Shown here in pieces: positions 16,501 to 58,538 of a stretch of DNA of 64,000 nt. Made by a program: the position numbers and the translations under genes. The notes beneath the pieces were generated by a model. It worked only from the letters and a program-made list of their open reading frames with translations. It ran no database searches and was not told where the DNA came from. Source of the DNA: a virus (Duplodnaviria > Heunggongvirae > Uroviricota > Caudoviricetes); the IMG/VR virus record IMGVR_UViG_3300028591_000080, positions 159,745 to 223,744 of that record; one strand, given 5' to 3'. Position 1 is the stretch's first letter. Every line of letters begins with the position of its first letter.

Positions 16501-16514
16501 ACTCGGATTTTTTC

Positions 16515-18629: not shown

Positions 18630-18632
18630 TTA

Positions 18633-19763: not shown

Positions 19764-19773
19764 ATTTTATCTC

Positions 19774-22922: not shown

Positions 22923-22999
22923 TTTTAACTCCTTTAAGATTTTTAAACTTTTTATATATTTTAAATACTTTACAAAGTTTAAATATTTTAAATACTTTT

Positions 23000-23480: not shown

Positions 23481-23489
23481 AAAACTCTC

Positions 23490-28117: not shown

Positions 28118-28555
28118 TTATTTTCTATTTCTTTTATTTATATATAACTTTTTATCTGCATCTAAAAGAGCTTCATCAAAAGAATTATATATAGTTTTAA
28201 TTGAAGTTCCAAAACTGAAAGTAAAATTAGTTAATGTTTTAAATTCTCTTTGATATAGTTCAAAATTAATTTTTTCTTTATGTATAATAATGAATTCATC
28301 TCCACCATACCTACATAAATAATTAATCGCTGGGTCTTGTTTTAAAACATCAATAAATTGTTTTAAAGCTCGGTCTCCAGCGACATGTCCTAAATCATCA
28401 TTTATCTTTTTAAAATTATCAATATCAATAACTGAAATATATACTTGTTTATTTTCTAATTTATTTTTTAGTTTATTTTCAATAAAATTTCTGTTATAAC
28501 AATCACACAGTAAATCGTAATAGGCTAATTTTTTATATTTAAAATAATGGATCAT
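28118..28555 (-). CDS. minimal GGDEF-domain protein (putative diguanylate cyclase-like, 145 aa)
   Basis: DIDNFKKINDDLGHVAGDRAL and RYGGDEFII match the GGDEF signature blocks. Confidence 0.6.
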   Translation of the reverse strand: MIHYFKYKKLAYYDLLCDCYNRNFIENKLKNKLENKQVYISVIDIDNFKKINDDLGHVAGDRALKQFIDVLKQDPAINYLCRYGGDEFIIIHKEKINFELYQREFKTLTNFTFSFGTSIKTIYNSFDEALLDADKKLYINKRNRK

Positions 28556-30131: not shown

Positions 30132-31148
30132 TTAATTTTCATTAGTTGGTTCATATGAATCTCCTTCTTTTTTAATAGTTACAGTTTGAACATCCATCCA
30201 CTTAGGACGCTTTGGTTCTTTTTCTACTAGTTTCTTTCCATTAGAATAACAAATACCATCTTCAATAACTAATACATTTACTTGCTTACTCCAAGCCGTT
30301 GTAGCATCTATGGCAATTAAATTTTTACCAAAGTAAATATCTGAGTTATCTGTAAAGTCATATAAATAATGTTCATTAAACTCAGAGCAACGATAGTGAC
30401 CACAAACTAATATTTTATCATTCTTAAGTTCTTGATTAAATAATCCTGCATCAAAGAACTTATATGGACAACCCCATGCTGCAACACTCCACTCTTTTGT
30501 AGTTGCATTACGCCAATCCGGTCTTTCTTTAAACATTTGGGTCCAAGCATAATATACACAATAATCCTCAGTTAAGCCACGTTCACTTTCCCAAGTTAAT
30601 GGAATGAACGAATGTACAAAGATATACTTACCTAATTCATAATAATTAATCCAACGATCTGATTTTAACCACTTAGTAACTTCAGAATTCTTTACAGCCT
30701 TTTTAATTTTATTCCATAAATCTTCTAGTGTCCAAACATCATCACTATAATGATGTCTAACAAAATGAAAATGCTTAGGATCATATTTTAAATCATAAGG
30801 AGCTTTATCTATTATATCCATATCATTTAATTCAGAACCTGCAATATGACAGAATGTTCTAACTGTTCCATTACTAAAATCATGGCTTTGTGGAAAATCT
30901 TTATTTAGTAAATCAAAATATAATTGTTCATGATTACCACGAATTAAAATACATCTATCTTCTGGTATTGACTTTAAAAAATTATAAACTTCAGCAGTTT
31001 CATCGCCTCTATCAAAAACGTCTCCACATACAATTAAGATATGTTCAGGATTTTCTTTATCATATCCATTATCTTTTAAAGCATTTTTCATAATAGAAGC
31101 AAAGCTATGAATATCGGAAATAACAAAATATTTCTTCATTGTAATCAC
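30132..31148 (-). CDS. PPP-family metallophosphoesterase (calcineurin-like; ApaH/PrpE or Pnkp-phosphatase-like)
   Basis: ISDIHS, CGDVFDRG and RGNHE signature motifs. Confidence 0.65.
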   Translation of the reverse strand: MITMKKYFVISDIHSFASIMKNALKDNGYDKENPEHILIVCGDVFDRGDETAEVYNFLKSIPEDRCILIRGNHEQLYFDLLNKDFPQSHDFSNGTVRTFCHIAGSELNDMDIIDKAPYDLKYDPKHFHFVRHHYSDDVWTLEDLWNKIKKAVKNSEVTKWLKSDRWINYYELGKYIFVHSFIPLTWESERGLTEDYCVYYAWTQMFKERPDWRNATTKEWSVAAWGCPYKFFDAGLFNQELKNDKILVCGHYRCSEFNEHYLYDFTDNSDIYFGKNLIAIDATTAWSKQVNVLVIEDGICYSNGKKLVEKEPKRPKWMDVQTVTIKKEGDSYEPTNEN

Positions 31149-31213: not shown

Positions 31214-32785
31214 TTAGTCCTTCTTAGTTGTAGAAGGCTTCTTTGTTGTAGGTGATTCCTTAACTTCGAAAGCATCATTCTTTACTGAGTTAGAAATTAG
31301 CTTTCCACCTAAAGTACCTACCAATAATGACTTAATATCTAAGCCAGTTGCTTGTTCAAGACCAGCGAAGATTTGAGTACCGTTCTTAGTAATTTCTTCA
31401 TTAAGCTTTGCAGTATTGCCTTCACCATACATTGTAATATTACCAATATGAGACATAGCTTCAGCCATAGGCTTAGAGTATGCTTCAACAACCTTAGGTA
31501 ATACATCAGATTCTAGAATCATCTTTAATGTAGCAGCTTCACCATATTGCTTCATCGCATCAGCTTTCTTTAAGATAGCTTCAGCTTCAGCCTTACCTTT
31601 AGCTTCAATACCTTCAGCTTCAGCAAGTGCAGCTTGCTTCTTAGCTTCAGCTTCTGCAACCATTGCTTCCTTCTTAGCATTAGCTTCGATAATTTGAGCT
31701 TCAGCAGCTTGTTGACGAGCAGCTTTTTCTGCAGCAGCCTTAACCTTAGCCATTTCAGCTTGACGTTGTGCTTCTGCTAATTCAGCTTCAGCAGCCTTAG
31801 TTCTCTTGTAAAGATCCGCATCAGCAGCCATTTGTGCAGCATACTTTTCAGCATCAGCTTTCTTATTAACTTCAGCTTGTAATCTCTTTTCAGTTAATTC
31901 AACTTCTTGAATTCCTAATTGAACTTCTCTTTGACGCTTAGAAATCTCAGCATTAATTGTTGCAGTATTAATAATTTCTTGTTGCTTTTGTTGTTGAATC
32001 TTATAAGCAGCATCTGCATCAGCTCTTGCTGTATCAGACTTTTGCTTTAATGAAGCAGCTCTTAATTCATATTCAGTATTTTGCTGAATGATTGTTGTAT
32101 CAGACTTAACCTTAGCTTCATTTGCATCTTGTCTAGCTTGTGCTTGAGCAATGTTTACATCTCTATCAGCATTTGCTTTAGCAATAGCAGCATCCTTAGA
32201 GATTTGAGCGATGTTATCGATACCTAAGTTTTCAATAACACTATTGTCATCAGTAAAGTTTTGAATATTAAAGTTTACTACTTCGATACCAATTGCAGCC
32301 ATATCTGGAGTAACATTTTCCTTAACCTTATCAGCAATACCTTTACGATCTTGAACCATATCTCTAATCTTAGATGCACCAACGATTTCACGAATATTAC
32401 CTTCAAGTACTTGGATAACTTGATCTTCAATATCTTTCTTAGACTTATTTAATAATGATTCTGCAGCTCGTTGTAACATTTCTGGAGTAGAACCAATTTT
32501 AATATTTGCAACGGCATCTACATTAACATTAATGAATTCATTTGTAGGAACTGAATTTCTAGTCTTAATATCAATAGACATTAAAGATAATGATAACTTA
32601 TCAACTCTCTCAAAGAAAGGAATTCTAAAACCTGCCTTACCAACAAGTACACGTTGTCTACGAGGACCTGTGATAATAACAGCCGTATCTGTTGGAGCCT
32701 TAGTATATCCTGCTGCTAAGAATATAATTAATAAGAATAAAAGCGCTCCGGCGATACTTAAACCAATTATTAAACCTAAATTCAT
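31214..32785 (-). CDS. flotillin-like SPFH/band-7 membrane protein with long Ala/Glu/Lys coiled coil
   Basis: N-terminal TM helix, SPFH core (VIITGPRRQRVLVGKAGFRIPFFERV), then a roughly 200-aa AEAK-rich coiled coil. Confidence 0.65.
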   Translation of the reverse strand: MNLGLIIGLSIAGALLFLLIIFLAAGYTKAPTDTAVIITGPRRQRVLVGKAGFRIPFFERVDKLSLSLMSIDIKTRNSVPTNEFINVNVDAVANIKIGSTPEMLQRAAESLLNKSKKDIEDQVIQVLEGNIREIVGASKIRDMVQDRKGIADKVKENVTPDMAAIGIEVVNFNIQNFTDDNSVIENLGIDNIAQISKDAAIAKANADRDVNIAQAQARQDANEAKVKSDTTIIQQNTEYELRAASLKQKSDTARADADAAYKIQQQKQQEIINTATINAEISKRQREVQLGIQEVELTEKRLQAEVNKKADAEKYAAQMAADADLYKRTKAAEAELAEAQRQAEMAKVKAAAEKAARQQAAEAQIIEANAKKEAMVAEAEAKKQAALAEAEGIEAKGKAEAEAILKKADAMKQYGEAATLKMILESDVLPKVVEAYSKPMAEAMSHIGNITMYGEGNTAKLNEEITKNGTQIFAGLEQATGLDIKSLLVGTLGGKLISNSVKNDAFEVKESPTTKKPSTTKKD

Positions 32786-38220: not shown

Positions 38221-39474
38221 TTAAGCCTCCTCGTTTTCTAATCTCCAGTTGATTGCATCCTTTAGATGAACTGTATATGCTGGATCTGGACATAATGTTT
38301 TACCCTTATCATCAGATACCTTTGCAACTGGCTTACCATTTACATATTGTAATTTCATAACAATATTTAATGGTCTGACAGTAGAGTCATTTGTAATGAA
38401 GGTACCAATACCCGCAGCAAATTTCATACGACCATCTACATAGTTATAGATTTCTAAACACTTATCAAAGTCATAAGAGTTAGATACTAAGAATGTTTTA
38501 GTCTTTGGATCAACACCTTCAGCTTCATAAGCCTTAACAAAGTTATCAATATGTTCGTGGTCATCGCCAGAGTCTGTTCTAACACCCATAAATTGTCTCA
38601 TGAATAATCTCTTGAATCCTCTTAAGAATAACTTAGTTGTTAATGTATCTGTTAATGCAATACCTAAGTCACCTTCAAATGTTTCTAGCCATTCTTGTAA
38701 TGCAGCTTCTACTGAATATGCTACTTGAATTCCTTTAACACCTTGGAATAGCATTGTATATTCATGAGCGAATGTTCCGATAGGAGTAACACCATATTTC
38801 ATAGCTAAATAGATATTTGAAGTACCACTAAAGATTCCAGATTCACAACCATTAGCTACGATAAAATCTTGAAGCTCTGGTAAGTTTCTACGTCTTGTAC
38901 CAAATTCTGCGATCTTACCTTTAAGTGGCTCATACTTTCCACCTTTTTCAAAACCAGCAGCCTTTGCAGCCCAACGCTTAATTCCTTCATTATAAATATT
39001 ATCATAAGTATCATTAAATAAATTCCATACATAAGATACAATTGATAAAGTATAGATTTCAAATTGAGATACAATATATACTGGACCTTCAGCTTCGATA
39101 TGTAAATCTCCATTTTCATCTAATTCAAATCTAGTTAAATATCTTAAATCTAATGTAAGGTGTCTTAATAATTCTAATGCACCTTTATGTTTTCTTAAGT
39201 GACGAATATTCTTTAAGTAATCAAGCTCAGCATCTGTCCAGTGTAATGTTGCTAAGTGTTCAAACTGTCTCTTTATTTCTCTGAACATTTCTGGAGTGAA
39301 CTTTGCATCCTTTGTTCTATTAACAAAGATATACTTTGTGATATCATTTGCATGATGTTCTAATTGAGGAATAAACATATATACTTTATAAGCATCCTCT
39401 TCAGATAAATAATGGATAGCATAACCATCTTTGTAATTAATAGGGCACTTTAACCCAGCTTCTGTAATTTTCAT
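38221..39474 (-). CDS. pncB: nicotinate phosphoribosyltransferase (PncB)
   Basis: Collinear with E. coli PncB: EFGTRRR, GTSN, TPIGTFAHEY, LGIALTD, RTDSGD, KPLNIVMKL, NGKPVAKVSDDKGKTLC. Confidence 0.85.
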   Translation of the reverse strand: MKITEAGLKCPINYKDGYAIHYLSEEDAYKVYMFIPQLEHHANDITKYIFVNRTKDAKFTPEMFREIKRQFEHLATLHWTDAELDYLKNIRHLRKHKGALELLRHLTLDLRYLTRFELDENGDLHIEAEGPVYIVSQFEIYTLSIVSYVWNLFNDTYDNIYNEGIKRWAAKAAGFEKGGKYEPLKGKIAEFGTRRRNLPELQDFIVANGCESGIFSGTSNIYLAMKYGVTPIGTFAHEYTMLFQGVKGIQVAYSVEAALQEWLETFEGDLGIALTDTLTTKLFLRGFKRLFMRQFMGVRTDSGDDHEHIDNFVKAYEAEGVDPKTKTFLVSNSYDFDKCLEIYNYVDGRMKFAAGIGTFITNDSTVRPLNIVMKLQYVNGKPVAKVSDDKGKTLCPDPAYTVHLKDAINWRLENEEA

Positions 39475-39564
39475 ATTTTAATTCTCCTTAATTATTTATT
39501 TAATATAGTCATCTTGACTATTATATTATACAATAAAATTTAGGAAATTTTATTCTTAATTTCC

Positions 39565-40080
39565 TTAAATCTTAATTAATTCTTGAACATTGCCTTTTAA
39601 ATTAAATATTATATAATTCTCATTGTCCCAGCAATTAGTAATATGGACAATCGAATCCCAGTCTGCTTCGCTTGGATTAGGAAATTCCATTCTATGCCAA
39701 TCTTTAATTAATTTATCTTCAGGCATTGTTCTATATCTATTTTTATTACCTTCTAAACATTTTTCGAGTGGAGCTGTGACCCAAAGTAAATGATGCTTGA
39801 AAGTTGGAAACCATTCAATTAATTGCCTACGTTGAGCAACAGTTAATGCATTAGTAGTTAATAATACATCATGGTCTTCCAATTCTACTTCATGTAGAAC
39901 TTTAAATAATAAATGCCAAACCTCAAAACTATTTTTATGGATTCGCTCATCACCATTTATTAATTTATAAAAATCATCAACGTCATAAAAAACTATATTA
40001 GGATTTTTACCGATTATTCTTTTACTTAATACAGTTTTTCCACCACCTGATATTCCACATACTAAATAGAAATTAGCCAT
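39565..40080 (-). CDS. P-loop nucleotide/nucleoside kinase-like protein
   Basis: Walker A GISGGGKT at the N-terminus; 171 aa; substrate unknown (nicotinamide-riboside or polynucleotide kinase are options). Confidence 0.45.
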   Translation of the reverse strand: MANFYLVCGISGGGKTVLSKRIIGKNPNIVFYDVDDFYKLINGDERIHKNSFEVWHLLFKVLHEVELEDHDVLLTTNALTVAQRRQLIEWFPTFKHHLLWVTAPLEKCLEGNKNRYRTMPEDKLIKDWHRMEFPNPSEADWDSIVHITNCWDNENYIIFNLKGNVQELIKI

Positions 40081-40505
40081 TATAACACCTCAAAATAGTT
40101 TAAAAACTTAGTTATATCTAAATAATATTCATGACCTTCTTTTATATCCTCATCAGAATATTTTAAAACTTTAATTGCATTATCAGAAAGTCTTGCATCA
40201 AAATTTTTATGAATCCAATCATATACATAGGTATTTGCATTATTCCAAATATAAACTAATTGCTTTGGAAGGCCATACTTTTTAAATAGTTCAGTCACTA
40301 AATATTTCATAGTCAATCTTCCATAACCTTGATGCTGATAATTCTTATTAGCATACCATTGAGAGATTGTCCACTTATTATTTGTGTCAACGCTTATTGT
40401 GCACTTACAAATATATTCATTTAAAAATTCTTCTGTAAGTAAACTTTCATAAACAAAAGTTAACTTAGAATTATTTATTAATTTGTAAGTTAACACAATA
40501 ACCAC
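40080..40505 (-). CDS. GNAT-family N-acetyltransferase
   Basis: QHQGYGRL acetyl-CoA-binding motif. Confidence 0.5.
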   Translation of the reverse strand: MVIVLTYKLINNSKLTFVYESLLTEEFLNEYICKCTISVDTNNKWTISQWYANKNYQHQGYGRLTMKYLVTELFKKYGLPKQLVYIWNNANTYVYDWIHKNFDARLSDNAIKVLKYSDEDIKEGHEYYLDITKFLNYFEVL

Positions 40506-41225
40506 CTACTTTAATCTATACACTTTACTAGGTCTCTTAGAAAATTCTGTACTTTCTAATCCATCAATAACTTCTAATCGATCACCATATCTTTTCAAGA
40601 TGTCTCTTCTAAAATTAGCTAAGCCGATTTTCTTATTTAAAATAGCTTCATATACTAATTTTAATTCATATAATGTAAATGATTTTTTTGATTTTAAAAA
40701 TTCAAAAGCAATATCTGTATAATCTAATTTTCCTTGTAATCTTTTTACTGTATCTTCAATGATTTGTTTATGATCAAAAGCCATAGAACAATTAAATGTA
40801 AATGGACATACCCATCCACTATTAGTTTCAGCTTTAGATTCTTCTGGTAAATAACACATAGCATTTACTGGTAGGATAGAATAATAAACTACTGATATAA
40901 CTCTTGTTCTTGGATCTCTATCTACTGCACCATAAGTATATAATTGTTCAATATGAATTTTATCTGGATCTAAATTTGGATAAGTTATTTTATCTTTTAA
41001 TTTAAATCTAACATTATCCTCTAAAGAAAGATTAGGCTGAACAAATCCTCCAGGAATTTGTAGCATGTCTTTAAATGGATAATCTTTTCTTTTAGTTACT
41101 AAAACTTCTAATTTATAAGAATTACCTAATTGATGCATACTTAAGATTACAACGTCTGTTGCAATAGATGGTCTATCCTTAAATTCATTAACATTATAAT
41201 CTTTTAAAAAGTCTTGTTCAGTCAT
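40506..41225 (-). CDS. Nudix-fold protein with C-terminal winged helix, NrtR-like (ADP-ribose-responsive regulator family)
   Basis: Nudix-like N-domain (GGFV), C-terminal blocks MAFDHKQII, FTLYELKLVYEAIL, NFRRDI that I recall as NrtR signatures. Confidence 0.45.
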   Translation of the reverse strand: MTEQDFLKDYNVNEFKDRPSIATDVVILSMHQLGNSYKLEVLVTKRKDYPFKDMLQIPGGFVQPNLSLEDNVRFKLKDKITYPNLDPDKIHIEQLYTYGAVDRDPRTRVISVVYYSILPVNAMCYLPEESKAETNSGWVCPFTFNCSMAFDHKQIIEDTVKRLQGKLDYTDIAFEFLKSKKSFTLYELKLVYEAILNKKIGLANFRRDILKRYGDRLEVIDGLESTEFSKRPSKVYRLK

Positions 41226-41235
41226 AACCTAACTC

Positions 41236-42375
41236 CTAACCTACTATACTTAAAATACTTAAATAACCTAACAATCCTGAAGCTGTTAAATAGATTTGAT
41301 TATTTTTAATTAAAGAATTTAGTTCGTCTAAAGAATAAACTTTAATCTTAATATCTTCTGTTGCTTCTAAATGTTGTTTACCGATTGAAGATAGTTTTAC
41401 AACAGCCATATAGTTTGCTTCATCACACATACCAGCACACATTGATAAAGGATAGTTTTGAAGTAATGTAATCTTTTCAACCTTACCACCAACTTCTTCA
41501 TAAACTTCTCTTTCAATAGCTTTATTAACATCTTCATTATTTTCAATTAATCCAGCAACGAATGAATTTACATATCTTCCTAAAGCACTACGGAATTCTT
41601 CAATCATAACAACTTTAATTTCCATAGTCTCTGGATCTACATAATAAGTAAATGCTTCAATAGCTGTTGGCTTAACCATATCATGATTGATTGCTAAATC
41701 CTTCATATTATTTCTTGATACAAAGAAATAATCTCTAGGCTGATTATTAGTCATATAGTGAGCCGTATAGAACTTTAAAAATTTCTTATCTAAATTTAAA
41801 TCTACAGATAATAATGTTTGATTTTCTGATTTAACAATAGGTTTAATTTTTAAAGTTTTTATCCAATTAAATGCTCTAATAATTGTATCAGCATGCTTTT
41901 CTGGATTTGAATTAGTTTCAACAAAGTCTTGACCTTTCATAGCTAACTTAGATTGAATAACTACATCTTGTTCTCTACTATAACCTTGTTCTACACTAAC
42001 AGTAATTCTATTCATATAATCATTTGGAAATCTTACTTCCATCTTTGCTAAATTTCTTCCTAATTCATACATACAGATAGGTTGAACGGATTTAGGACTA
42101 TTTGCAAAATACATTGAGAAAATATCCATTTGTTCTAACATATTAAATTCCCAAGTTATTTGTTCATTAGAAGCATTAGGATCATGAATAGGGAAGTTTT
42201 TACGTCTTGGATTGAATAATACTAATCCAGTTAAATCAACGTCAACGTTCTCTAAATAATTAATTACTTCATCTTGCCATTCACCACAATCTGTGATACC
42301 TCCAGCTAAGAAACAAGTAATTTCTCCTGGCTTCTTTTCATATTTTTCTACAGCTGTAATTACTTTTATATTCAT
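41236..42375 (-). CDS. Nudix hydrolase (ADP-ribose pyrophosphatase-like) fused to an N-terminal Rossmann-like (nucleoside deoxyribosyltransferase/LOG-like) domain
   Basis: Complete Nudix box AGLIENNEDVNKAIEREVYEEVGG; N-terminal FLAGGITDCGEW resembles YLAGP-type Rossmann folds. Confidence 0.55.
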   Translation of the reverse strand: MNIKVITAVEKYEKKPGEITCFLAGGITDCGEWQDEVINYLENVDVDLTGLVLFNPRRKNFPIHDPNASNEQITWEFNMLEQMDIFSMYFANSPKSVQPICMYELGRNLAKMEVRFPNDYMNRITVSVEQGYSREQDVVIQSKLAMKGQDFVETNSNPEKHADTIIRAFNWIKTLKIKPIVKSENQTLLSVDLNLDKKFLKFYTAHYMTNNQPRDYFFVSRNNMKDLAINHDMVKPTAIEAFTYYVDPETMEIKVVMIEEFRSALGRYVNSFVAGLIENNEDVNKAIEREVYEEVGGKVEKITLLQNYPLSMCAGMCDEANYMAVVKLSSIGKQHLEATEDIKIKVYSLDELNSLIKNNQIYLTASGLLGYLSILSIVG

Positions 42376-42376
42376 A

Positions 42377-43360
42377 TTAATTTTTACTCCTCTTTAATTC
42401 TGATATTTCTAAAGCTTGTTCAACAACTAAAGCTTTAAGTCTTTCAACTTCATGTTCTAATGCATGGTACTTTTCTGCTGGAACGTCTGCCTCTTTTACT
42501 GCACTTATCTTCATACAAAGACTACTATCATCAACTTTATCTGCAATGCGCTTAGAATCTCCAATTGATGTTAATGAATCACTACCAGCAATTTGAACAA
42601 GACTGCCATAAGGAAGACCTTCATCTAAAAGATAATTTAAACCTTTTTTAATTTCACAATCTGATTTATTAAATAGTTCTGGAACTATTCCATGCTTACT
42701 CATCCACTCTCTAGCAGCTTTAGGACCAGCTAAAATCTTTCGATCTAATTTAAATCTAGGTTCATAATCTGATGGTGGTAATGCTTCTCTCCAGCAAGTA
42801 TTTAAAATTCTAGCTATCTCAACACCACTTGAATTTGATTTAGATTCTACTAAAATAAAATCACGTTTATTTTTAAGTCTATCTTCTTCAAGATTTAATA
42901 ATTCAGCTTCTCTAGCTGGAACCATAATAAATCTCTTAGACCAATCATCATATTTCTTTTTATTTAAATATTCAAAGTATACACATAAATAATTCTTTTC
43001 AATAGGATCAATTACCTCAATACCAGTACGAGCTATATACTGATAGTTTTGTTTTTCAATATACCATAAACCACCTTGAGCTCTTGGATTTAACCACTTA
43101 CTTCCATCATCATTATAACAACAGAACTTACGAGTAATGTGGATTCTAATACTATTTGATACTTTATCATTAAATGTATATTTATAGCTTCCATTTAGTT
43201 CAGAAATACCATAAGTATCATCTTCGAATATCTCAGCTTCAAAAATAGTTGATGGATCTAAATTAGGAAAGTATGTTAAAAAACCTCTAATTCTTTTTGC
43301 TTTAATTAAAATTGGAAATCTAAATTTCATATTGTTCACCTCATATATAATAATATACAA
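42377..43360 (-). CDS. hypothetical protein (327 aa)
   Basis: ORF inside the NAD island; no motif recognised. Confidence 0.5.
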   Translation of the reverse strand: MYIIIYEVNNMKFRFPILIKAKRIRGFLTYFPNLDPSTIFEAEIFEDDTYGISELNGSYKYTFNDKVSNSIRIHITRKFCCYNDDGSKWLNPRAQGGLWYIEKQNYQYIARTGIEVIDPIEKNYLCVYFEYLNKKKYDDWSKRFIMVPAREAELLNLEEDRLKNKRDFILVESKSNSSGVEIARILNTCWREALPPSDYEPRFKLDRKILAGPKAAREWMSKHGIVPELFNKSDCEIKKGLNYLLDEGLPYGSLVQIAGSDSLTSIGDSKRIADKVDDSSLCMKISAVKEADVPAEKYHALEHEVERLKALVVEQALEISELKRSKN

Positions 43361-43368
43361 TATGACTA

Positions 43369-43851
43369 TTAATAAATCTCATTTGTTAATAAATAACTTA
43401 TTAAATAATCATAAGCCATTTGTGCTGCATACTCTCTAACTTTTTCTCTATCATCATTAAATATTTGATATTCAAATCCACCAGCTTGAGTCATATTATT
43501 ATATTTTTTAATTAATAAACTAACATAGAATTTTCCAGCTGGAGTTCCACGATTAGAACCAGGTCCAGCTACACCAGAAATTGCCACTGCGATATTAGCA
43601 CCAGTTAATTCTAAAAGACCATCACACATTTGACGTGTTGTTTGACTATTATAAGGTCCATATCTAACTAAGAAATCTGAATCAACATTTAATACTTTAG
43701 ATTTAATTTCATCTGTATAAGATGTGACAGAACCTAGATAAACAGAACTTATTCCAGGTTCTTCACAAATCTTTGCAGATAACTTTCCACCAGTTAAAGA
43801 TTCAGCTACAGCTAACTTAAGGTTATATTTTTCCAACAATTCTTTTAGCAT
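43369..43851 (-). CDS. CinA C-terminal domain protein (PncC-type NMN deamidase family)
   Basis: LAVAESLTGGKLSAKI matches the CinA_C signature. Confidence 0.6.
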   Translation of the reverse strand: MLKELLEKYNLKLAVAESLTGGKLSAKICEEPGISSVYLGSVTSYTDEIKSKVLNVDSDFLVRYGPYNSQTTRQMCDGLLELTGANIAVAISGVAGPGSNRGTPAGKFYVSLLIKKYNNMTQAGGFEYQIFNDDREKVREYAAQMAYDYLISYLLTNEIY

Positions 43852-44648
43852 TAAATCTTCACCTCTAAATCATCAGGTTCATACTTAGGCATTAGTACTA
43901 ACTTATGTAAATTAGCTCTGTGCATTCTATCAATCTTTTCTTTATGTTCTAGATTTTCAATAACACCAGTTCGAATATAAGTATCTAATTCATCATAAGT
44001 AAATCCTAACTTCTCTTCATCAGACTTACCACTCATTCCATCGCTAGGAACTTTTTCAATTAAATCCTTTGGTAAACCTAATTCATAACCTAATTCTTTA
44101 ACTTCATGAACAGTTAAATTTGCAAGTGGTGAAAAGTCTCCTGCACTATCTCCATACTTAGTTGAATAACCAACCCAGTCCTCAGATAAATTACAAGTAT
44201 TGGCTACTCTTGCATTACCAAGAATTGCTGCAACTCCGTATAAAGTTGTCATACGAATTCTTGCTGGAGTATTAGTTTCATATACATCATTAAACTTTGT
44301 TGCATAATTAGTTATATAACTTGAGCAAGTTCTATTTATTCTATGTCTAGACTTAAATCCTTCAAATATTGATTGTCTTAACATTAAAGTAGCATAACCA
44401 ATATTTATACAAGTATAATCAATACCTAAATGCTTAACTAATTCTAATGATTTATCAATATCCTTTTGTTCACCATCTGGCATTAATACGCCAAATACTT
44501 TATCCTTACCAAGTGCTTCCACACATAAAGCAGCACAAACTGAACTATCTTTGCCACCACTAATTCCAATAACAACTGTACAATCACCTACAGTCTTTCT
44601 AACCCATTCAACTAAATCTTCTTTACATTTCTTTGCATTAAATTCCAT
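43851..44648 (-). CDS. nadE: NH3-dependent NAD+ synthetase
   Basis: PP-loop GISGGKDSSV; 265 aa, NadE-sized. Confidence 0.8.
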   Translation of the reverse strand: MEFNAKKCKEDLVEWVRKTVGDCTVVIGISGGKDSSVCAALCVEALGKDKVFGVLMPDGEQKDIDKSLELVKHLGIDYTCINIGYATLMLRQSIFEGFKSRHRINRTCSSYITNYATKFNDVYETNTPARIRMTTLYGVAAILGNARVANTCNLSEDWVGYSTKYGDSAGDFSPLANLTVHEVKELGYELGLPKDLIEKVPSDGMSGKSDEEKLGFTYDELDTYIRTGVIENLEHKEKIDRMHRANLHKLVLMPKYEPDDLEVKI

Positions 44649-44678
44649 ATTGTTCTCCTTTAAACTCTTTTAATTTAT

Positions 44679-45227
44679 TTATACCTTTCTAAATATACTA
44701 TCGTCTGCTGGTTCAAAATCTGGTTGCCAACTTCTTTTAGTAACTGTCCATGAATAATTAGTTATAGTTGGAATAGTTTTTTCTTCAATTAAATTATCAA
44801 AAACATATAACCTATTATCTCTAGAACTAAATCTTGAGTAATCTTTCATTTTATAAAAAGCTTCTACATCTGCTTTAGTTTTAATCGATATATTATAACC
44901 ATCAATATCATTACTATAAGTTATATAATTTCTACGGCAAAAATCATATAATTCTAAAGCATTTGTATATACATAAACCTTTTTAATGTTAGGATATCTC
45001 TTTTTATAATAAGATGTAATTTTTTCAGGATTAGTAAACTCAAAAGGTTCACCACCAGTTAGGCAAAGCACTTCGCATTGTTTTAACTCTTCATCTGTAA
45101 CATAAGGAATATCATCTAAACTATATTGCTTATTACAACAATGAGGACAATTTCTTAAACACAAACTTGTTACCATTAAGTGGATAACTCTTTTAGTTTT
45201 ATTAGTATATTCATTTAACTTACTCAT
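44679..45227 (-). CDS. small radical SAM protein (QueE/NrdG-like activase)
   Basis: CLRNCPHC (C-x3-C-x2-C) near the N-terminus and GGEP motif. Confidence 0.5.
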   Translation of the reverse strand: MSKLNEYTNKTKRVIHLMVTSLCLRNCPHCCNKQYSLDDIPYVTDEELKQCEVLCLTGGEPFEFTNPEKITSYYKKRYPNIKKVYVYTNALELYDFCRRNYITYSNDIDGYNISIKTKADVEAFYKMKDYSRFSSRDNRLYVFDNLIEEKTIPTITNYSWTVTKRSWQPDFEPADDSIFRKV

Positions 45228-45318
45228 GATTTATTCTCCTTAGTCATTTATTTTAGCAAATTATAAATAGTCATTTTGACTATTATATTATACAATAAAA
45301 AATAGAATTTTTCGAATT

Positions 45319-45714
45319 CTATTTTTCTCCATATAATAATCGATGTTTTGCATCAGATAATATAATTTCTTTCTGAGGTCCAACAAACTTATCTCTACCA
45401 TCCAATAAGTATATCTTAATAACTCTTGAACGATGAGTTAATTGTAAGTCATCATAACCATTATTATCAAACCATCTAAGTTCTGCTCCATAAACACCTT
45501 GATCTTTTAATTCTGGAAATCTTGTTACAACATCTAATTTATTATCTATAATATGTTTCATATCATCAATATAATTAGAATTATAAGCTCCAAAACCAAT
45601 CTCTTCACCATCAAAGACTGTATAGATTTGCTGACCTGGATCATCAAAATAAAAGTCTACGTGATATCCTCTGTAATCTAATTCTTCATCTATTTTATCT
45701 TTCTTATTCATCAT
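45319..45714 (-). CDS. hypothetical protein (131 aa)
   Basis: ORF. Confidence 0.45.
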   Translation of the reverse strand: MMNKKDKIDEELDYRGYHVDFYFDDPGQQIYTVFDGEEIGFGAYNSNYIDDMKHIIDNKLDVVTRFPELKDQGVYGAELRWFDNNGYDDLQLTHRSRVIKIYLLDGRDKFVGPQKEIILSDAKHRLLYGEK

Positions 45715-45940
45715 CTTTACCTCCTAAAACTCGATGAGTACCTTGTAAGGCAGAACCAATCTTTTCACATCTAATAGAAACTACATCTTTATCATGACCT
45801 TCAATACCATCATCTAAAGAATATTCATTAAAGCGATCTGTAAAACAAATTTTGGTTTGATATCCAAAAGCTTTTCCTAACTTTAATGTTAAATTAAGTA
45901 AATCTTGTACTGTCACTATTTTCATATAAAATACCTCCAT
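45704..45940 (-). CDS. hypothetical protein (78 aa)
   Basis: ORF. Confidence 0.4.
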   Translation of the reverse strand: MEVFYMKIVTVQDLLNLTLKLGKAFGYQTKICFTDRFNEYSLDDGIEGHDKDVVSIRCEKIGSALQGTHRVLGGKDDE

Positions 45941-46065
45941 ATTTTGAGTTTTATTATTAAAATAATAAAATATCCATTGAATGATTAAAAACGTTCCTAA
46001 ACGTTAATTTCTAGTTAATTTCTAGTATATAATACAATAAAAAAGAACTATATTTCTATAGTTCC

Positions 46066-46614
46066 TTAAATTTTTTCAAATACATCCAATACATCATCGG
46101 TGCTAATAGCAATTAAAGCATATGGATTACCTTTAATATAATATAAGTCATAAACTTTACCGTCATAATCTTTAGTAGCTTTCCAAGTAAATTGAGTTCC
46201 TTTTGGGATTGTAATTACATCTGCATTATCAATTAAACCTAATTTGCTATAAGCACTTAAAATCTTTTCATCACTAATTCTAGTAATTTTATTTACAATT
46301 TCTTGTTTTGCTAAGAATTCATCTATTGAAGAATAAATTAAATCTTTCTTTAAAGTTTGTCTTTGGATTTCCTCGTTAATTACATTTAATGCTTCGAAAG
46401 TACTTGCAAAACTACCATTAGTAATATGATCTTTGGTTGGAATATCCACACCAAAATATTCAGCATATCTCTCTAAAACCTTTGGATCATTAAAATCTGG
46501 TAGTTTTATTTGAGCGGCTAACTCATGTAATTTTTCTGCATCTGATTTAGGTTTTAAATCATCGAAAGTCATTCCATCTGGTAATCTATCGATATCACGT
46601 ATAAATTCTTTCAT
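46066..46614 (-). CDS. hypothetical protein (182 aa)
   Basis: ORF with AAGAGG RBS. Confidence 0.5.
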   Translation of the reverse strand: MKEFIRDIDRLPDGMTFDDLKPKSDAEKLHELAAQIKLPDFNDPKVLERYAEYFGVDIPTKDHITNGSFASTFEALNVINEEIQRQTLKKDLIYSSIDEFLAKQEIVNKITRISDEKILSAYSKLGLIDNADVITIPKGTQFTWKATKDYDGKVYDLYYIKGNPYALIAISTDDVLDVFEKI

Positions 46615-46624
46615 AATATATCCT

Positions 46625-47435
46625 CTTAATTTCCAAGTTTACTTAGTAATGAATCTAAAACTATTTCTTTAATTAATGGCATTAGTTCCATCATATAGTC
46701 ATCTTCTATTTTATCATTAGCTCATTTAATTTCTAAGTGTCCACCACATTCTTTTGGACATGGTGCATCATGCATTATAATAGCTACAATTACTTTAACC
46801 ATTGTCATATCTTTAAATTTAAGAAATGAGCGTGGTGTTTTTTCATATAATTCTATTTCATCAATGTCGCCATTTGAACATCCGATAGTAAGAGCTACTT
46901 CATCTTTATTTCTTGCTGCATAGATAGCATTTTCTACAGCACCTGGATGAGCTTGAATTGGATAAGTTAATCCTAAAATTCGAGTAATTTCTGCTGCGTA
47001 TTTTAGTCAACATTCTCCATGACCATCATCAGCTCTATAATAATCTTCTATCTCTTTTGTTGGAAATACTTTTTCACCGTGTTCTTCATCTGCTCAAATG
47101 TTTAGACGTTTATCATTTAACATTTCAACATCTACTAAATAATGACAATATTCATGTGCAAAAGTATTTTCAAATAATTCTTCCAATCCGTTCTTTAATA
47201 CATATTGACTAACTTCTATTTGAATCATAGCCTCATGATGTAATACGTCTCTACCAAATAAAGTACTACCTAAAGTATTGGTTGAATCATATCCTTTAAG
47301 TGATACTCCTAATAAACTAGGATTTGGTTTTCAATCTGGATGAGCTTTAGATATTTTAAATAAAACTTGATTAGCAATAAACATTGCTAAATCTTCTTCC
47401 ATATAATCATTTTTATCTTCAAATAAATTAACCAT
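46625..47435 (-). CDS. HExxH zinc-metallopeptidase-like protein, about 269 aa, with 4 in-frame TGA codons
   Basis: ATG with AAGGAG RBS 9 nt upstream; FAHEYCHYLVD HExxH motif; all four Trp positions (HPDWKPN, LNIWADE, GECWLKY, EIKWAND) are TGA; ends at TAA; invisible to the standard-code ORF track. Confidence 0.55.
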
Positions 47436-47475
47436 AAGTAGAAACTCCTTACAGTATAATTTAGCAATCTAAATA

Positions 47476-48765
47476 TTAACTTGTATGTTCGACATTATAT
47501 CTTGTAGTTTGATCACTTGCAAATTTAATTAAATCTTCCTTATTATTTTTTAAGATTCCACTATAAACTTCAATTAATGTCATCTCTAATGCAGTTCTAA
47601 TTTGTTTTCCTTTATAACCTAAAGCAATCATATCATTACCATCAACTGCTAATTGATTTAAAGAATAACAACCGCTTTCAAATACTAAATTAATAACTTC
47701 TGTTGAATTAAAATAATATCTGTTAATAGCGTCAATAAATACAAAAGCATCTTGAATTTCAAGTAATTTTCTTACTAGCCATTCAGCATCTTTATTAGAA
47801 TAACCATATGTATCAACTAATCTATGACCTAAAGCTCCAACACTGTCTGAGTCATCAAGATTAACCTTTCTAACTTCTCTACTTAATACTTTAATTAATT
47901 TTGTATCTTTTGTTGAAAATTTTAAACGAGTTAAAATAGCTTCAGTTTGTTCAGGAGTTAAGTATGAACAAATTCCAATAAAGTTATCAACATAATGATC
48001 AGTCACAAGCTTAAATAATTGCTTATTTAAGTACTTAAATTCAGGAATAATATGATAAATAATAGCACCAGGCATAAATCCTTGCATTAAATCACCAACA
48101 GTCTCATAATCAAAGATTCTAATAATCTCATCATGGATTCTTTCTGCAGAAATACTATCTAATAAATCTTCTTGGAAAAACATTGCGTACATAGTTCCAT
48201 TCTCAATATGGAAATTATACTTGCATGCAAATCTAAGACCACGCAAGATTCTTAGAGCATCCTCTTTAAATCTTTCTTTAGGGTCTCCAACTGCACGAAC
48301 AATACCTTCTTTTAGGTCCTTTAATCCACCAAATGGGTCAATTACAGTATCACCGCTGTTATATGCCATCGCGTTGATAGTAAAGTCACGTCTAGCTAAA
48401 TCTTTTACAATATCTTTAGTAAATTCAACAGATTCAGGGTGTCTATTATCTTTATATTCGCCATCAATACGATATGTAGTGATTTCAATATTCTCTTCAT
48501 TGTATCTAACTGTTACAGTTCCGTGCTTTTCTCCATTGTTATTAATGATAGGATAATCTTTAAATACTTCTTTAATTTCATCAGGAGTCGCATTAGTAGT
48601 TAAGTCAATATCTTTAATTGAATGACCTAATAAAAGGTCCCTTACCGCTCCGCCGACAATATAAGCTTCATATCCAGCAGTTTCAAGTTTATTAAAAACA
48701 AATTGTACAATATCTTTTTGCTTAGCTGTAAGTAAATCAAATAAATTATTTGACACTTTAATCAC
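47476..48765 (-). CDS. cca: tRNA nucleotidyltransferase (CCA-adding enzyme)
   Basis: Pol-beta-type head YIVGGAVRDLLLG ... DIDL ... RDFTINAMAY; 429 aa. Confidence 0.75.
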   Translation of the reverse strand: MIKVSNNLFDLLTAKQKDIVQFVFNKLETAGYEAYIVGGAVRDLLLGHSIKDIDLTTNATPDEIKEVFKDYPIINNNGEKHGTVTVRYNEENIEITTYRIDGEYKDNRHPESVEFTKDIVKDLARRDFTINAMAYNSGDTVIDPFGGLKDLKEGIVRAVGDPKERFKEDALRILRGLRFACKYNFHIENGTMYAMFFQEDLLDSISAERIHDEIIRIFDYETVGDLMQGFMPGAIIYHIIPEFKYLNKQLFKLVTDHYVDNFIGICSYLTPEQTEAILTRLKFSTKDTKLIKVLSREVRKVNLDDSDSVGALGHRLVDTYGYSNKDAEWLVRKLLEIQDAFVFIDAINRYYFNSTEVINLVFESGCYSLNQLAVDGNDMIALGYKGKQIRTALEMTLIEVYSGILKNNKEDLIKFASDQTTRYNVEHTS

Positions 48766-49546
48766 CTTCTTTTAAATAATATTTTTTAAAGCGTAATAAA
48801 CTTTCATTTGTAAAAGTTATTTGTCCTGCTTTATATAACTCAACTATAAAAGGACGAGTTAACTGTTTAAAATCTTTGTTTGAAAATAAAACATATTCTA
48901 GATTATTATTTGAACAGTAGGTTTCAGCCGCTTGCTTTTTTAATAAAACAACCTCTGAACTTAACTCTCTAAAATCTTTAATCTCATATAAATATTTATT
49001 ATCGACCAAAAAGTCTGGTCTATATTGATGGATAGTTCCACTGGTATCACTATAATAAATGGTCATAGTTTCTGCTGATTTAATTGTATGATTTTCATTT
49101 AACATTTTATAGATAAATGATAATTCAACAAGAGACCTAAATAGATATCCAGAATACCAACCAGCATAACCACGACCATTAACTGGGTTATCTTCAGTAA
49201 ATTTATGTGGATTATTTATTCCTTTTGCAAAATAATGATGATTAGCTTTTCAATCATCACTCTTAAAACGTTCTGTCAAAGACTTACCTAATTGTTTCTT
49301 ATTATATTCTGCCCAAGTATAAGTACGTATACCTTTTTGATAATCTTCATGTTGACGACAGCCTCTACATAGGTCTCTATCATCTCTTTTTTTAAAATTT
49401 AATTGTTGTGAATGATAATTTATCTTATAAATTTTACCGCATACATCACATCTAACTTCGATAATATCACCAGTACTAAATCCTACCCTTCCTTTTTTAA
49501 ATCCATGTGCACCTGCTTGTAATATTCTTGGTTTACTAAGTATCAT
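48758..49546 (-). CDS. zinc-finger plus PD-(D/E)xK nuclease-domain protein (homing-endonuclease-like), about 262 aa, with one in-frame TGA
   Basis: Track ORFs 49250..49546 and 48758..49105 share a frame, separated only by TGA; N-terminal CDVCGK...CRGCRQ, C-terminal YRPDFLVDNKYLYEIKDF (PD...EIK). Confidence 0.55.
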
Positions 49547-49706
49547 AAATAATCTCCTTATTTTTTATTCATTTAATTTAGCAAACAAAACGCAGCCACC
49601 AACAAAATAGGTTACTCTATATAAATAATACAATAATTCCTAATATAAGTGTAACACTTGTTATAACTAATTTAACAATATCATTAATTAATTTTAATTT
49701 CATAAG

Positions 49707-49907
49707 CTAATCCTCCAGACCTTCTTTTGCACCTAAGCAGCATAGACCAATAAATAAGATAGAAAGCACATGTATACTATATAAAAATAACCAATACCAA
49801 CTTCCTAATACAATACTTAAAACAATAGGAAGACCAGCAAAACTAATACTAATTGCAAATACTAAAAACATTATTAATAGCGCACATATTTTTTTAAGTG
49901 TTTTCAT
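49707..49907 (-). CDS. small two-TM membrane protein (66 aa)
   Basis: Two hydrophobic helices. Confidence 0.45.
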   Translation of the reverse strand: MKTLKKICALLIMFLVFAISISFAGLPIVLSIVLGSWYWLFLYSIHVLSILFIGLCCLGAKEGLED

Positions 49908-49919
49908 TACTTAATCTCC

Positions 49920-50213
49920 TTATAATTTAAAAATTTGTTCTTCGTCTATGCTCATACTTTTTTCTGTCTTAGTATAAACATCATATAAATCCGAACCAGC
50001 GTCTTCATCGTAATATTCAACTCTAATAGAATGATATTCTTTGCTTAATTTATATTTTGAAGTTCCTATTGATTTAACTTTTGAACTCTTTTTTGCATCT
50101 TCAAGTATCTTGTTAAATTCTGCATCACGTTTTTCAACTGAAGTAAAATAATAAGTATGTGTATAATCTGGATAACTATAATAGACTTCAATAATTGGAA
50201 CGATTTTAGTCAT
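49920..50213 (-). CDS. hypothetical protein (97 aa)
   Basis: ORF. Confidence 0.45.
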   Translation of the reverse strand: MTKIVPIIEVYYSYPDYTHTYYFTSVEKRDAEFNKILEDAKKSSKVKSIGTSKYKLSKEYHSIRVEYYDEDAGSDLYDVYTKTEKSMSIDEEQIFKL

Positions 50214-57272: not shown

Positions 57273-58538
57273 CTACTTCCAAGTTGCTTGAACTTTTGCA
57301 ATTTCTTTTAAGCCTTTTTCAGCATAAGCTAAGTTCTTAACTTTGAATGAGAAACCAGTTCCTCTTTCTTTGTTATAGTTATCTGACTTGACCACAATAC
57401 CCTCATGTTGAGCGTATTGCTTCCATAACTTTTCATTTGCTGTTGGAATATGAATAATAGCCTCTTTGTTCCAATATACATTTTCAGCATATTTTACTAA
57501 AGAATCAACAGTATCAAATTTGCTACCCATATCTTCAACGGTCTCAACTAATGGTACACAATTTAATCCTAACTTATCTGCAACTTCATGCATTTTAGGA
57601 TATGGATATTCTACCCATTGTCCATTTTCAAAACCTTTCATTCTGAATACAAACCATTGAACTTGCTTATATCCATAAATATTTTCTTGAATACCAGGGC
57701 CAACTTGCTCACCTTGAATCATTAATCTAATTCCAGTTTTCTTTAAATAAGCCTTTAACTTATTTGCAATATCATATCTTTCAGCTGTTGCCCAGAATAC
57801 TTTTGAAGTATCATCAACTCTATCAAATCTGTTGTTTCTTGAACATACATAGAAAGCATCTTTCTTCTTTGCATCTAATGAGCATGTGAATGATTGACCT
57901 TCCATCTTAGCTGTAATATAAGCTTTAGTTCCTGGGAACATAGAAATAACACTCTTATAATTTTGAATAGTTGTTTCATCAGACTTAGAAATAATTTCAG
58001 TTGGGAAGTTACCTTTAGAGAACTTTCTCTTTCGGTTCTCCATGTAGATATTTCCGATCCATCTAGTTAACTTATGCTTTAAGAAGAACTTGATAATTCT
58101 AGGAATCTTTGGCATCTTCTTAGGTGATGCGTCTTCGGCTGGCTCATACTTTCTAATATTTAACTTATCAGTTACATCTGTTCCAGCTTTTAAGTTTTCA
58201 GGTAATCCTGCTTCAGCTAATGTTACACATAAACCCCAAGACTTAACTCTTTCACCAGAATCTGTTCCATCTTCATTTGCTTTCTTACCCATAGTCATGC
58301 ACTTAATTAAGAAACCTTGTAAGTCTTCTCTATAGCATCTCTTTCTTAAGAATTCCCATTTTTCTTCTATAGGTAAAATACTGTCAGCTTCAATGAATAC
58401 CATTTTATCACCAACATTTACAGTATTAGGAACAATACATTCATAAGCATTTTCTTCAAAGGATACATAACAAATTCTATCCTTTTCAAACATCTTTCCT
58501 TTACTAGCTACGGTAACAATTTTAGCCATATCTCGCAT
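57273..58538 (-). CDS. ATP-dependent polynucleotide ligase of the RNA-ligase (Rnl) family
   Basis: Motif I ITAKMEGQS (KxxG), motif IV QHEGIVVKS, motif V FSFKVKN; a separate DNA ligase exists at 25828..27159. Confidence 0.5.
   Translation of the reverse strand: MRDMAKIVTVASKGKMFEKDRICYVSFEENAYECIVPNTVNVGDKMVFIEADSILPIEEKWEFLRKRCYREDLQGFLIKCMTMGKKANEDGTDSGERVKSWGLCVTLAEAGLPENLKAGTDVTDKLNIRKYEPAEDASPKKMPKIPRIIKFFLKHKLTRWIGNIYMENRKRKFSKGNFPTEIISKSDETTIQNYKSVISMFPGTKAYITAKMEGQSFTCSLDAKKKDAFYVCSRNNRFDRVDDTSKVFWATAERYDIANKLKAYLKKTGIRLMIQGEQVGPGIQENIYGYKQVQWFVFRMKGFENGQWVEYPYPKMHEVADKLGLNCVPLVETVEDMGSKFDTVDSLVKYAENVYWNKEAIIHIPTANEKLWKQYAQHEGIVVKSDNYNKERGTGFSFKVKNLAYAEKGLKEIAKVQATWK

What the first reader, a model, noticed from the sequence alone, without database searches (positions are those of the whole stretch)
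46625..47435. Hidden 269-aa HExxH metallopeptidase-like gene with four TGA codons directly downstream of the CCA-adding enzyme gene
The track shows an 860-bp gap. The minus strand encodes a protein with a canonical AAGGAG RBS and the HExxH motif FAHEYCHYL. All four of its Trp codons are TGA, and it ends with TAA. It is not a homing endonuclease, so TGA use is not confined to mobile genes.
Basis: seen in the sequence. Interest (0 to 1): 0.7.

Follow-up and report, generated by a model that had tools for sequence, protein, structure and literature searches.

The report
Hidden TGA-coded SprT-like phage protease gene
The 860-base "gap" holds a real, conserved gene for a Spartan/SprT-type zinc protease in a large uncultured phage, missed by standard gene callers because all four of its tryptophans are written TGA; both the protein family and TGA-to-tryptophan recoding in phages are already known.

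Summary
Window 46626-47435 (minus strand) is a 269-codon ORF with four in-frame TGA, no TGG, a TAA stop, an AAGGAG ribosome-binding site and an HEYCH motif.

The gene is real. Homologs sit in the same place in related phage contigs, and changes between them are mostly synonymous. Each of the four TGA codons aligns with TGG (Trp) in at least one homolog, in a graded series of 0, 1, 2 and 4 TGA. So TGA is read as Trp.

It forms a conserved two-gene module with the downstream 182-aa gene. The CCA-adding enzyme is a frequent but not constant upstream neighbour.

In the window, none of 102 genes ends in TGA. Seventeen sense TGA codons fall in just six genes. Four of those six ORFs, including this one, use TGA for nearly all their Trp codons.

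This fits the published picture of TGA-recoded gut phages (Borges et al.). No suppressor tRNA was found in the ~80 kb examined. Whether the TGA codons delay translation of the protease is inference.

Verdict: a new member of known kinds, of moderate interest.

The parts
46626..47435 (-). SprT-like zinc metalloprotease gene: 269 codons plus a TAA stop, read with TGA = Trp
47445..47450 (-). Shine-Dalgarno sequence AAGGAG, 9 nt upstream of the ATG
   Evidence: 72% of window genes carry an SD core against an 11% background
47331..47333 (-). TGA codon 35 (Trp)
   Evidence: TGG in L012 and L013; TGA in L002, L003, L010, L011; Phe in L001
47094..47096 (-). TGA codon 114 (Trp)
   Evidence: TGG in L002
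47007..47009 (-). TGA codon 143, the near-invariant Trp of the GHGxxW motif
   Evidence: TGG in L002, L003, L012, L013 and L001. W143 conserved in at least 90% of 30 family members
46722..46724 (-). TGA codon 238 (Trp)
   Evidence: TGG in L003, L012 and L013; Phe in L001
47142..47156 (-). HEYCH (H94, E95, H98): two predicted zinc ligands and the catalytic glutamate
   Evidence: Invariant in 30 sequences; aligned with Spartan HEMIH
47019..47021 (-). H139 of the GHG motif, the predicted third zinc ligand
   Evidence: Invariant; aligned with the EGHG segment of Spartan
46746..46880 (-). C-terminal zinc-ribbon-like region (C186 ... C226-x3-C230). Most family members have CxxC...CxxC; this subgroup has lost the second Cys (CSNGD)
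46066..46614 (-). Conserved 182-aa downstream partner gene. It starts 11 nt after the SprT-like stop, has its own GAGGA, and uses TGG only
   Evidence: It follows the SprT-like gene in L001, L002, L003, L014, L017 and L018 at 42-92% identity. No Pfam match. The model shows a weak SH3/Tudor-like barrel
47476..48765 (-). Upstream CCA-adding enzyme / class II nucleotidyltransferase gene (context; a frequent but not constant neighbour)
   Evidence: Adjacent in L001, L003, L014 and L015; 6 kb away in L018; replaced by another gene in L017

Best explanation
Window 46626-47435 (minus strand) is an intact, vertically inherited gene of a large (over 200 kb), AT-rich, uncultured phage. The sample names suggest rumen or gut metagenomes. 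The gene encodes a 269-aa SprT/Spartan-type zinc metalloprotease. H94, H98 and H139 are the predicted zinc ligands and E95 the catalytic base, followed by a Cys zinc-ribbon-like domain and a long C-terminal helix. The mRNA can give full-length protein only if UGA is decoded as tryptophan. This lineage no longer uses TGA as a stop and has begun converting TGG to TGA in a handful of genes, this one completely. By analogy with Spartan and Wss1, the most likely activity is proteolysis of proteins bound or cross-linked to DNA, with the zinc ribbon providing nucleic-acid contact. It probably acts together with the co-conserved 182-aa downstream protein. The gene appears to be co-transcribed with TGA-free neighbours, so its four UGA codons would make its translation depend on efficient UGA suppression. 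That suppression would come from a phage suppressor tRNA elsewhere in the genome or from another code-switch device. Shown here: the ORF, the family and fold, the conservation, TGA = Trp, and the window-wide TGA pattern. Inferred: DNA-dependent protease activity, the substrate, cooperation with the partner, a standard-code host, and any timing role for the TGA codons.
Against: No tRNA of any kind was found in the window or in about 17 kb of flanks, so the decoding agent is unidentified. In published cases recoding is concentrated in structural and lysis genes, whereas this gene sits among RNA-repair and NAD-metabolism genes. In relatives outside the window strain, TGA preference in the SprT-like gene over neighbouring genes is not significant (6/12 against 3/14, P = 0.22), so gene-specific gating is not demonstrated. 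The window subgroup lacks one of the four zinc-ribbon cysteines. The Pfam match covers only residues 54-104. No biochemical data exist for this subfamily, and no function has been shown for any phage SprT-like protein that I know of (my own knowledge).
Confidence: 0.8

Rival explanations
1. The phage infects a host that itself uses genetic code 4 (Mycoplasma/Spiroplasma-type Mollicutes). TGA is then an ordinary Trp codon with no switch or gating, and the gene is hidden only from code-11 software.
For: 0 of 102 genes end in TGA, and TGA aligns with Trp. Heavy Shine-Dalgarno use and DNA-ligase affinities point to the Bacillota side of the tree, to which Mollicutes are related. No suppressor tRNA was found.
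Against: In a 28% GC genome with TGA freely usable, AT pressure should make TGA the main Trp codon. Here TGG outnumbers TGA 220 to 17, and TGA is confined to 6 of 102 genes. Relatives L001 and L018 have essentially no sense TGA. A phage genome over 200 kb would be very large for hosts with genomes of about 0.6-1.4 Mb (my own knowledge). Borges et al. report about 90% of genes recoded when the host shares the alternative code.
Confidence: 0.1
2. TGA is Trp, but the four TGA codons have no regulatory meaning. After TGA was freed from its stop role and a suppressor became available, TGG-to-TGA mutations drifted to fixation in weakly expressed or late-read genes, and this gene happens to have fixed all four.
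For: The graded 0/1/2/4 series among lineages looks like stepwise neutral substitution under AT pressure. The gene's GC3 (0.104) is on the low side of the genome's range (0.171 +/- 0.052). The cross-lineage preference test is not significant.
Against: Within the window strain, the 12 genes around it have 0 TGA among 20 Trp codons while this gene has 4 of 4. Overall clustering is extreme (P < 5e-5). The distant L017 ortholog also has 2 of 2 TGA.
Confidence: 0.4
3. The ORF is a decaying pseudogene, or the TGA codons are genuine stops giving a 34-aa peptide, and the apparent long frame is fortuitous.
For: Table 11 breaks it into fragments. Large contigs of the same phage in public data carry no gene call here (one search shows the same behaviour for the other TGA-rich cluster).
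Against: Full-length homologs at 44-99% identity have the catalytic residues invariant. There is an excess of synonymous change. TGA interchanges with TGG only at Trp columns. There are no TAA or TAG codons across 269 codons of an AT-rich sequence. The four TGA are identical in a strain variant with 97% nucleotide identity.
Confidence: 0.02
4. TGA encodes glycine (code 25, as in phages of Absconditabacteria/Gracilibacteria) or selenocysteine rather than tryptophan.
For: Code-25 phages exist in gut metagenomes.
Against: All four TGA columns hold TGG (Trp) or Phe in homologs, never Gly or Cys. One of them is the near-invariant W143 of the family.
Confidence: 0.01

Closest known systems
Human SPRTN (Spartan) protease domain, PDB 6mdw/6mdx, and the Pfam SprT-like family PF10263
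   Different: About 13% identity. None of the SPRTN regulatory modules (SHP, PIP, UBZ) is present. The insert between HExxH and GHG is about 40 residues, compared with about 15 in SPRTN. The zinc ribbon is split by a helical insert of about 35 residues and, in this subgroup, has only three Cys. The protein is phage-encoded and has a dedicated small partner gene. DNA dependence is untested.
Wss1 and archaeal minigluzincins (proabylysin, selecase, projannalysin)
   Different: These proteins are about 100-130 aa, use an HExxHxxxxxH-type third ligand, and have no C-terminal zinc ribbon.
SprT-like proteins annotated in other viruses (e.g. Halogranum tailed virus 1, Vibrio phage VAP7, Aeromonas phage Aeh1, baculovirus SprT/XE)
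   Same: Same fold class by Foldseek (E 6e-6 to 4e-3), and encoded by large DNA viruses.
   Different: Not detectable by sequence (no tblastn hit in 50,697 phage records; no PHROG). The present subfamily is rare, with 31 cluster representatives among 1.84 billion.
TGA-to-Trp recoded gut phages (Jade, Sapphire and Agate clades; Borges et al., bioRxiv 10.1101/2021.08.26.457843)
   Same: Low GC, large genome, animal-gut-type metagenomes, TGA lost as a stop, in-frame TGA aligning with Trp in only a fraction of genes, and close relatives that are still compatible with the standard code.
   Different: In this window the recoded genes are not structural or lysis genes. The coding-density gain is only 4.0 points, below the 5% screening threshold that paper used for contigs of 100 kb or more. 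No suppressor tRNA, RF1 or TrpRS was seen in the ~80 kb available. Clade membership was not tested because no terminase gene is available.
ArdC antirestriction protein (PDB 6sna)
   Different: Different domain order and a far weaker match than to Spartan. No sequence similarity was detected.

Membership tests
SprT-like family (Pfam PF10263; Spartan/SprT zincins) | Scores above the curated Pfam gathering cut-off | tested here: met
   30.0 bits against 25.6. All 30 aligned family members match, best E 2.4e-9
SprT-like family (Pfam PF10263; Spartan/SprT zincins) | HExxH motif with a catalytic Glu | tested here: met
   H94-E95-Y-C-H98 is invariant in 30 sequences and aligned to Spartan HEMIH
SprT-like family (Pfam PF10263; Spartan/SprT zincins) | Third zinc-binding His downstream of HExxH | tested here: met
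   H139 in the GHG motif is invariant and aligned with the EGHG segment of Spartan. Metal-site geometry in the model was not inspected
SprT-like family (Pfam PF10263; Spartan/SprT zincins) | Spartan-like metalloprotease fold | tested here: met
SprT-like family (Pfam PF10263; Spartan/SprT zincins) | Accessory zinc-binding / nucleic-acid-binding module | tested here: inconclusive
   The family consensus is CxxC...CxxC. The window subgroup keeps C186, C226 and C230 but has Gly in place of the second Cys
SprT-like family (Pfam PF10263; Spartan/SprT zincins) | DNA-dependent proteolytic activity | not testable with these tools
   Needs biochemistry
   No Pfam hit at E <= 1. IrrE-like viral models appear only at rank 31 or lower with E > 0.01
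TGA-to-Trp (code 4) recoded phages | In-frame TGA in conserved genes aligning with Trp | tested here: met
   All four TGA columns align with TGG in homologs
TGA-to-Trp (code 4) recoded phages | TGA depleted or absent as a stop codon | tested here: met
   78 TAA, 24 TAG and 0 TGA among 102 genes
TGA-to-Trp (code 4) recoded phages | Phage-encoded suppressor tRNA(UCA) or other code-switch genes (RF1, TrpRS) | tested here: inconclusive
   No tRNA in the window or in L004-L009, but this covers only ~80 kb of a genome over 200 kb. Borges et al. detected suppressor tRNAs in only 35% of code-4 phages
TGA-to-Trp (code 4) recoded phages | Host uses the standard code | not testable with these tools
   Indirect evidence only: TGG outnumbers TGA 220 to 17, SD use in 72% of genes, and ligase best hits in phages of Bacillota
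TGA-to-Trp (code 4) recoded phages | Recoding concentrated in late structural and lysis genes | not tested
   No structural genes lie in the window or the flanks that could be reached

The most novel reading that the evidence does not exclude
The four UGA codons are a translational lock. A promiscuous, DNA-activated protease is co-transcribed with early or middle RNA-repair and NAD-metabolism genes, but can be translated only after the phage switches the cell to UGA = Trp. The 0/1/2/4 TGA series among sister lineages would then capture the installation of that lock, and the earliest steps of a codon reassignment, outside the structural and lysis genes where recoding has been described.
Probability: 0.25. 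Interest if true: 0.6.

Novelty: new member of a known kind. Interest (0 to 1): 0.4.

Why it matters
There are three practical points.

1. Public assemblies of this phage annotate the long contigs with code 11. They therefore miss this gene and a second TGA-rich cluster. The coding-density gain of only 4 points would escape the usual screens for recoded phages, so weakly recoded phages are probably under-counted.

2. The lineages with 0, 1, 2 and 4 TGA codons in one orthologous gene, within a genome that has already stopped using TGA as a stop, give a clean natural series for studying how a stop codon is captured as a sense codon.

3. The protein defines a rare phage subfamily of Spartan-like proteases with a fixed small partner. 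No function has been established for viral SprT-like proteins as far as I know. A DNA-associated protease that may be gated by the genetic code is a testable candidate for a host-takeover or genome-maintenance function.

Tried and rejected
- **Megablast** of window 45000-50000 against 50,697 phage records gave no match. **tblastn** of the protein against the same records also gave none.
- **PHROGs** gave no significant family.
- **IMG/VR** scans with the SprT-like alignment and with a flank gene gave no relatives.
- The **PDB sequence search** with the 8-sequence profile returned only spurious Izumo hits. The 30-sequence profile was needed to reach Spartan.
- The **afdb50 fold library** was unavailable.
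- Alignment A3 was **too diverse** for the metagenome scan; A2 was used instead.
- The **tRNA search** of the window and flanks found no tRNA. **Rfam** found nothing in the window, L004 or L001.
- The attempt to **reach structural genes or a suppressor tRNA** by walking out from the window edges gained only about 10 kb on the left and about 6 kb on the right.
- The **test for TGA preference** of SprT-like orthologs over neighbouring genes in other lineages was not significant (P = 0.22).
- **Recent horizontal acquisition from a code-4 organism** was rejected because of native GC content and conserved synteny.
- **Pseudogene, code 25 and selenocysteine** readings were rejected by the codon alignment.

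Full report
**1. The observation**

On the minus strand, an ATG at 47435-47433 opens a frame of 269 sense codons that ends with TAA at 46628-46626. The finding's lower coordinate is one base off. The frame contains four TGA codons, at positions 35, 114, 143 and 238. It has no TGG and no other stop.

AAGGAG lies 9 nt upstream of the ATG. FAHEYCHYL is residues 92-100. The gene starts 40 nt after the stop of a 429-aa class II nucleotidyltransferase with tRNA-nucleotidyltransferase domains, the 'CCA-adding enzyme' (PolyA_pol head domain, E 1.4e-42).

Under table 11 the locus yields only minus-strand fragments of 44 aa or less. A simple ORF map leaves an 861-nt hole at 46615-47475, and that hole closes under code 4.

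**2. The gene is real and native**

A search of 5.8 billion proteins found seven full-length relatives at 44-99% identity. An exhaustive profile search of 1.84 billion cluster representatives found 31, nearly all 245-290 aa.

In the contigs that encode them, the gene keeps its place:
- L001: CCA enzyme, SprT-like gene, 182-aa gene, radical-SAM-like gene, NAD synthase, CinA, NAPRTase. This is the same order as window 48765 down to 38221.
- L002, L003 and L015 show the same local order.
- L014, a strain variant with 97% nucleotide identity, carries the gene with the same four TGA codons.

Codon differences are biased towards synonymous change: 10 against 3 versus L010, and 31 against 39 versus L002. 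The gene's GC content (0.293) equals the genome mean (0.294). It is therefore neither a pseudogene nor a recent import.

**3. TGA is read as tryptophan**

In a codon alignment of eight orthologs, each of the four TGA columns holds TGG in at least one lineage:

| Column | Other lineages |
|---|---|
| 35 | TGG in L012 and L013 |
| 114 | TGG in L002 |
| 143 | TGG in five lineages |
| 238 | TGG in L003, L012 and L013 |

Where the residue is not Trp it is Phe. Column 143 is the near-invariant Trp of the family's GHGxxW motif.

The TGA count per ortholog forms a series:
- 0 in L012, L013, L001 and L018
- 1 in L003 and L015
- 2 in L002 and L017
- 4 in the window, L010, L011 and L014

. This excludes glycine (code 25), selenocysteine and termination.

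**4. What the protein is**

- **Sequence family.** Pfam SprT-like (PF10263) scores 30.0 bits against a cut-off of 25.6, and all 30 aligned family members match it. ImmA/IrrE does not match.
- **Closest solved relative by sequence.** A profile of the 30 sequences finds the human Spartan protease domain (6mdw, E 0.001), with HExxH aligned to HEMIH and the family's GHG motif aligned to Spartan's EGHG segment, which I take to hold the third zinc ligand.
- **Other viruses.** Foldseek against viral models returns SprT-like proteins of many phages, haloviruses, baculoviruses and giant viruses.
- **Conserved residues.** Across 30 sequences down to about 20% identity, G56, H94, E95, H98, H139, C186 and C226 are invariant. 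L84, N90, G138, W143 and C230 are at least 90% conserved.
- **Zinc ribbon.** Most members have a CxxC...CxxC ribbon split by a helical insert. The window's subgroup has lost the second Cys (CSNGD).

I therefore place it as a member of the SprT-like family, in a rare phage-specific subfamily. DNA-dependent proteolysis is inferred from the family and was not tested.

**5. The conserved module**

The downstream 182-aa gene (46066-46614) begins 11 nt after the SprT-like stop. It follows the SprT-like gene in every contig long enough to show it: L001, L002, L003, L014, L017 and L018, at 42-92% identity.

It is better conserved than the protease (72% against 44% in L001). It always writes its single Trp as TGG.

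The CCA enzyme is a less constant neighbour. It is 6 kb away in L018, and a different gene lies upstream in L017.

**6. The genome-wide code pattern**

All 102 ORFs of the window lie on the minus strand, and coding density is about 91-92%. Their stops are 78 TAA, 24 TAG and 0 TGA. After trimming 5' extensions there are 17 sense TGA codons against 220 TGG, confined to six genes (permutation P < 5e-5):

| Gene | TGA / Trp codons | Note |
|---|---|---|
| 46626-47435 | 4/4 | This gene |
| 22998-23480 | 4/4 | GIY-YIG endonuclease |
| 23490-23774 | 3/3 | |
| 21927-22922 | 4/5 | |
| 48758-49546 | 1/3 | TnsA-like / PD-(D/E)XK endonuclease |
| 17490-18629 | 1/5 | |

Code 4 raises coding density from 86.7% to 90.7% and closes exactly three gaps. 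Relatives L001 and L018 have essentially no sense TGA and at most one ambiguous TGA stop.

A 28% GC genome in which TGA was freely readable would be expected to prefer TGA for Trp. The opposite bias points to a setting where TGA is not always readable. That is the model Borges et al. proposed for phages of standard-code hosts: low GC, then loss of TGA stops, then acquisition of a suppressor, then sense TGA in a subset of genes.

Host clues are indirect:
- 72% of genes have a Shine-Dalgarno core, against an 11% background.
- The DNA ligase is closest to ligases of phages of Geobacillus, Clostridioides and Bacillus, at 37-40% identity.

Window genes occur on many metagenomic contigs, including one of 0.2-1 Mb, so the phage is very likely a jumbo phage.

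**7. How it most likely works**

*Shown:* this is an intact SprT/Spartan-type zincin gene that needs UGA = Trp decoding. No terminator and no above-chance promoter lies between it and its TGA-free neighbours.

*Inferred:*
- The protein cleaves DNA-associated or DNA-cross-linked proteins, helped by its zinc ribbon and perhaps by its partner.
- Its translation waits for efficient UGA suppression.

The gating idea is attractive because Spartan-type proteases are promiscuous once activated (abstract of PMC7826251). It is not demonstrated. No tRNA was found in the roughly 80 kb examined. In other lineages, the TGA excess in this gene over its neighbours is not significant (P = 0.22). Neutral TGG-to-TGA drift in a weakly or late-expressed gene remains a serious alternative.

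**8. Comparison with what is known, and novelty**

SprT-like proteins are already annotated in many phages and viruses. TGA-to-Trp recoding in large gut phages is published. Neither is new in kind.

What is specific to this case:
- a rare subfamily with a fixed partner gene;
- complete TGA usage in a non-structural, non-mobile gene inside an otherwise TGA-free region;
- a graded TGG-to-TGA series among sister lineages;
- an overall recoding level low enough to escape coding-density screens.

Verdict: a new member of known kinds, with interest 0.4.

Noticed in passing
L008 983-1357 (+), about 6 kb beyond the window's right end: A phage-encoded tmRNA. ARAGORN predicts the tag AKSIFNKIANFFRGFGAQRVAALA. 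Rfam RF00023 scores 86 bits against a gathering score of 47, full length.
   Followed up: partly
window 47468-49612 compared with L014 8664-9968: Two strains 97% identical in DNA differ sharply here. The window has an extra TnsA-like / PD-(D/E)XK endonuclease gene (48758-49546, one TGA), and its CCA-adding enzyme is only 48% identical in protein to L014's. Identity resumes 33 nt upstream of the SprT-like ATG. This looks like an endonuclease-associated replacement of the whole gene.
   Followed up: partly
window 21927-23774 (-): A second TGA-rich cluster of three ORFs: 94 aa (3/3 Trp as TGA), a GIY-YIG endonuclease of 160 aa (4/4), and an unknown 331-aa protein (4/5). It is present in all six strain contigs examined. 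It is uncalled on the long contigs (annotated with code 11) and called on the short ones (code 4).
   Followed up: partly
window 17490-20826 (-): Three consecutive genes of 350-380 aa are distant paralogs of each other (blastp E 7e-6 to 8e-12). One of them (17490-18629) carries a single sense TGA at codon 291. They have no PHROG or Pfam family.
   Followed up: no
window 38221-45227 (-): A block of NAD-metabolism genes conserved with L001: a radical-SAM-like gene, NAD synthase (NadE), then further genes that L001's annotation suggests are CinA, an NrtR/NUDIX-like protein, an AAA_33 kinase-like protein and NAPRTase.
   Followed up: no
window 57273-58538, 30132-31148, 47476-48765, 25828-27159 (-): An RNA/tRNA-repair-type gene set: RNA ligase, a metallophosphatase that also matches an RNA-ligase PHROG, the CCA-adding enzyme, and an ATP-dependent DNA ligase.
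   Followed up: no
window 23853-24893, 31214-32785, 28118-28555 (-): Unusual auxiliary genes: DAHP synthase (PHROG E 1e-80), a 523-aa SPFH/flotillin-like protein, and a 145-aa ORF that appears to correspond to a product with a recorded GGDEF Pfam hit in strain contigs.
   Followed up: no
L004 about 15930-17420 (beyond the window's left end): A stretch of about 1.5 kb without a convincing ORF in either code, holding only short Trp/TGA-rich frames. No Rfam family and no tRNA were found there.
   Followed up: partly
L001 8770-9973: In the distant relative L001, the CCA-adding enzyme is called as two ORFs (136 and 203 aa) separated by about 180 nt. In-frame TGA does not explain the split. The cause was not examined.
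   Followed up: no
window 15610-16189: A 580-nt stretch with no ORF of 60 aa or more in either genetic code.
   Followed up: no
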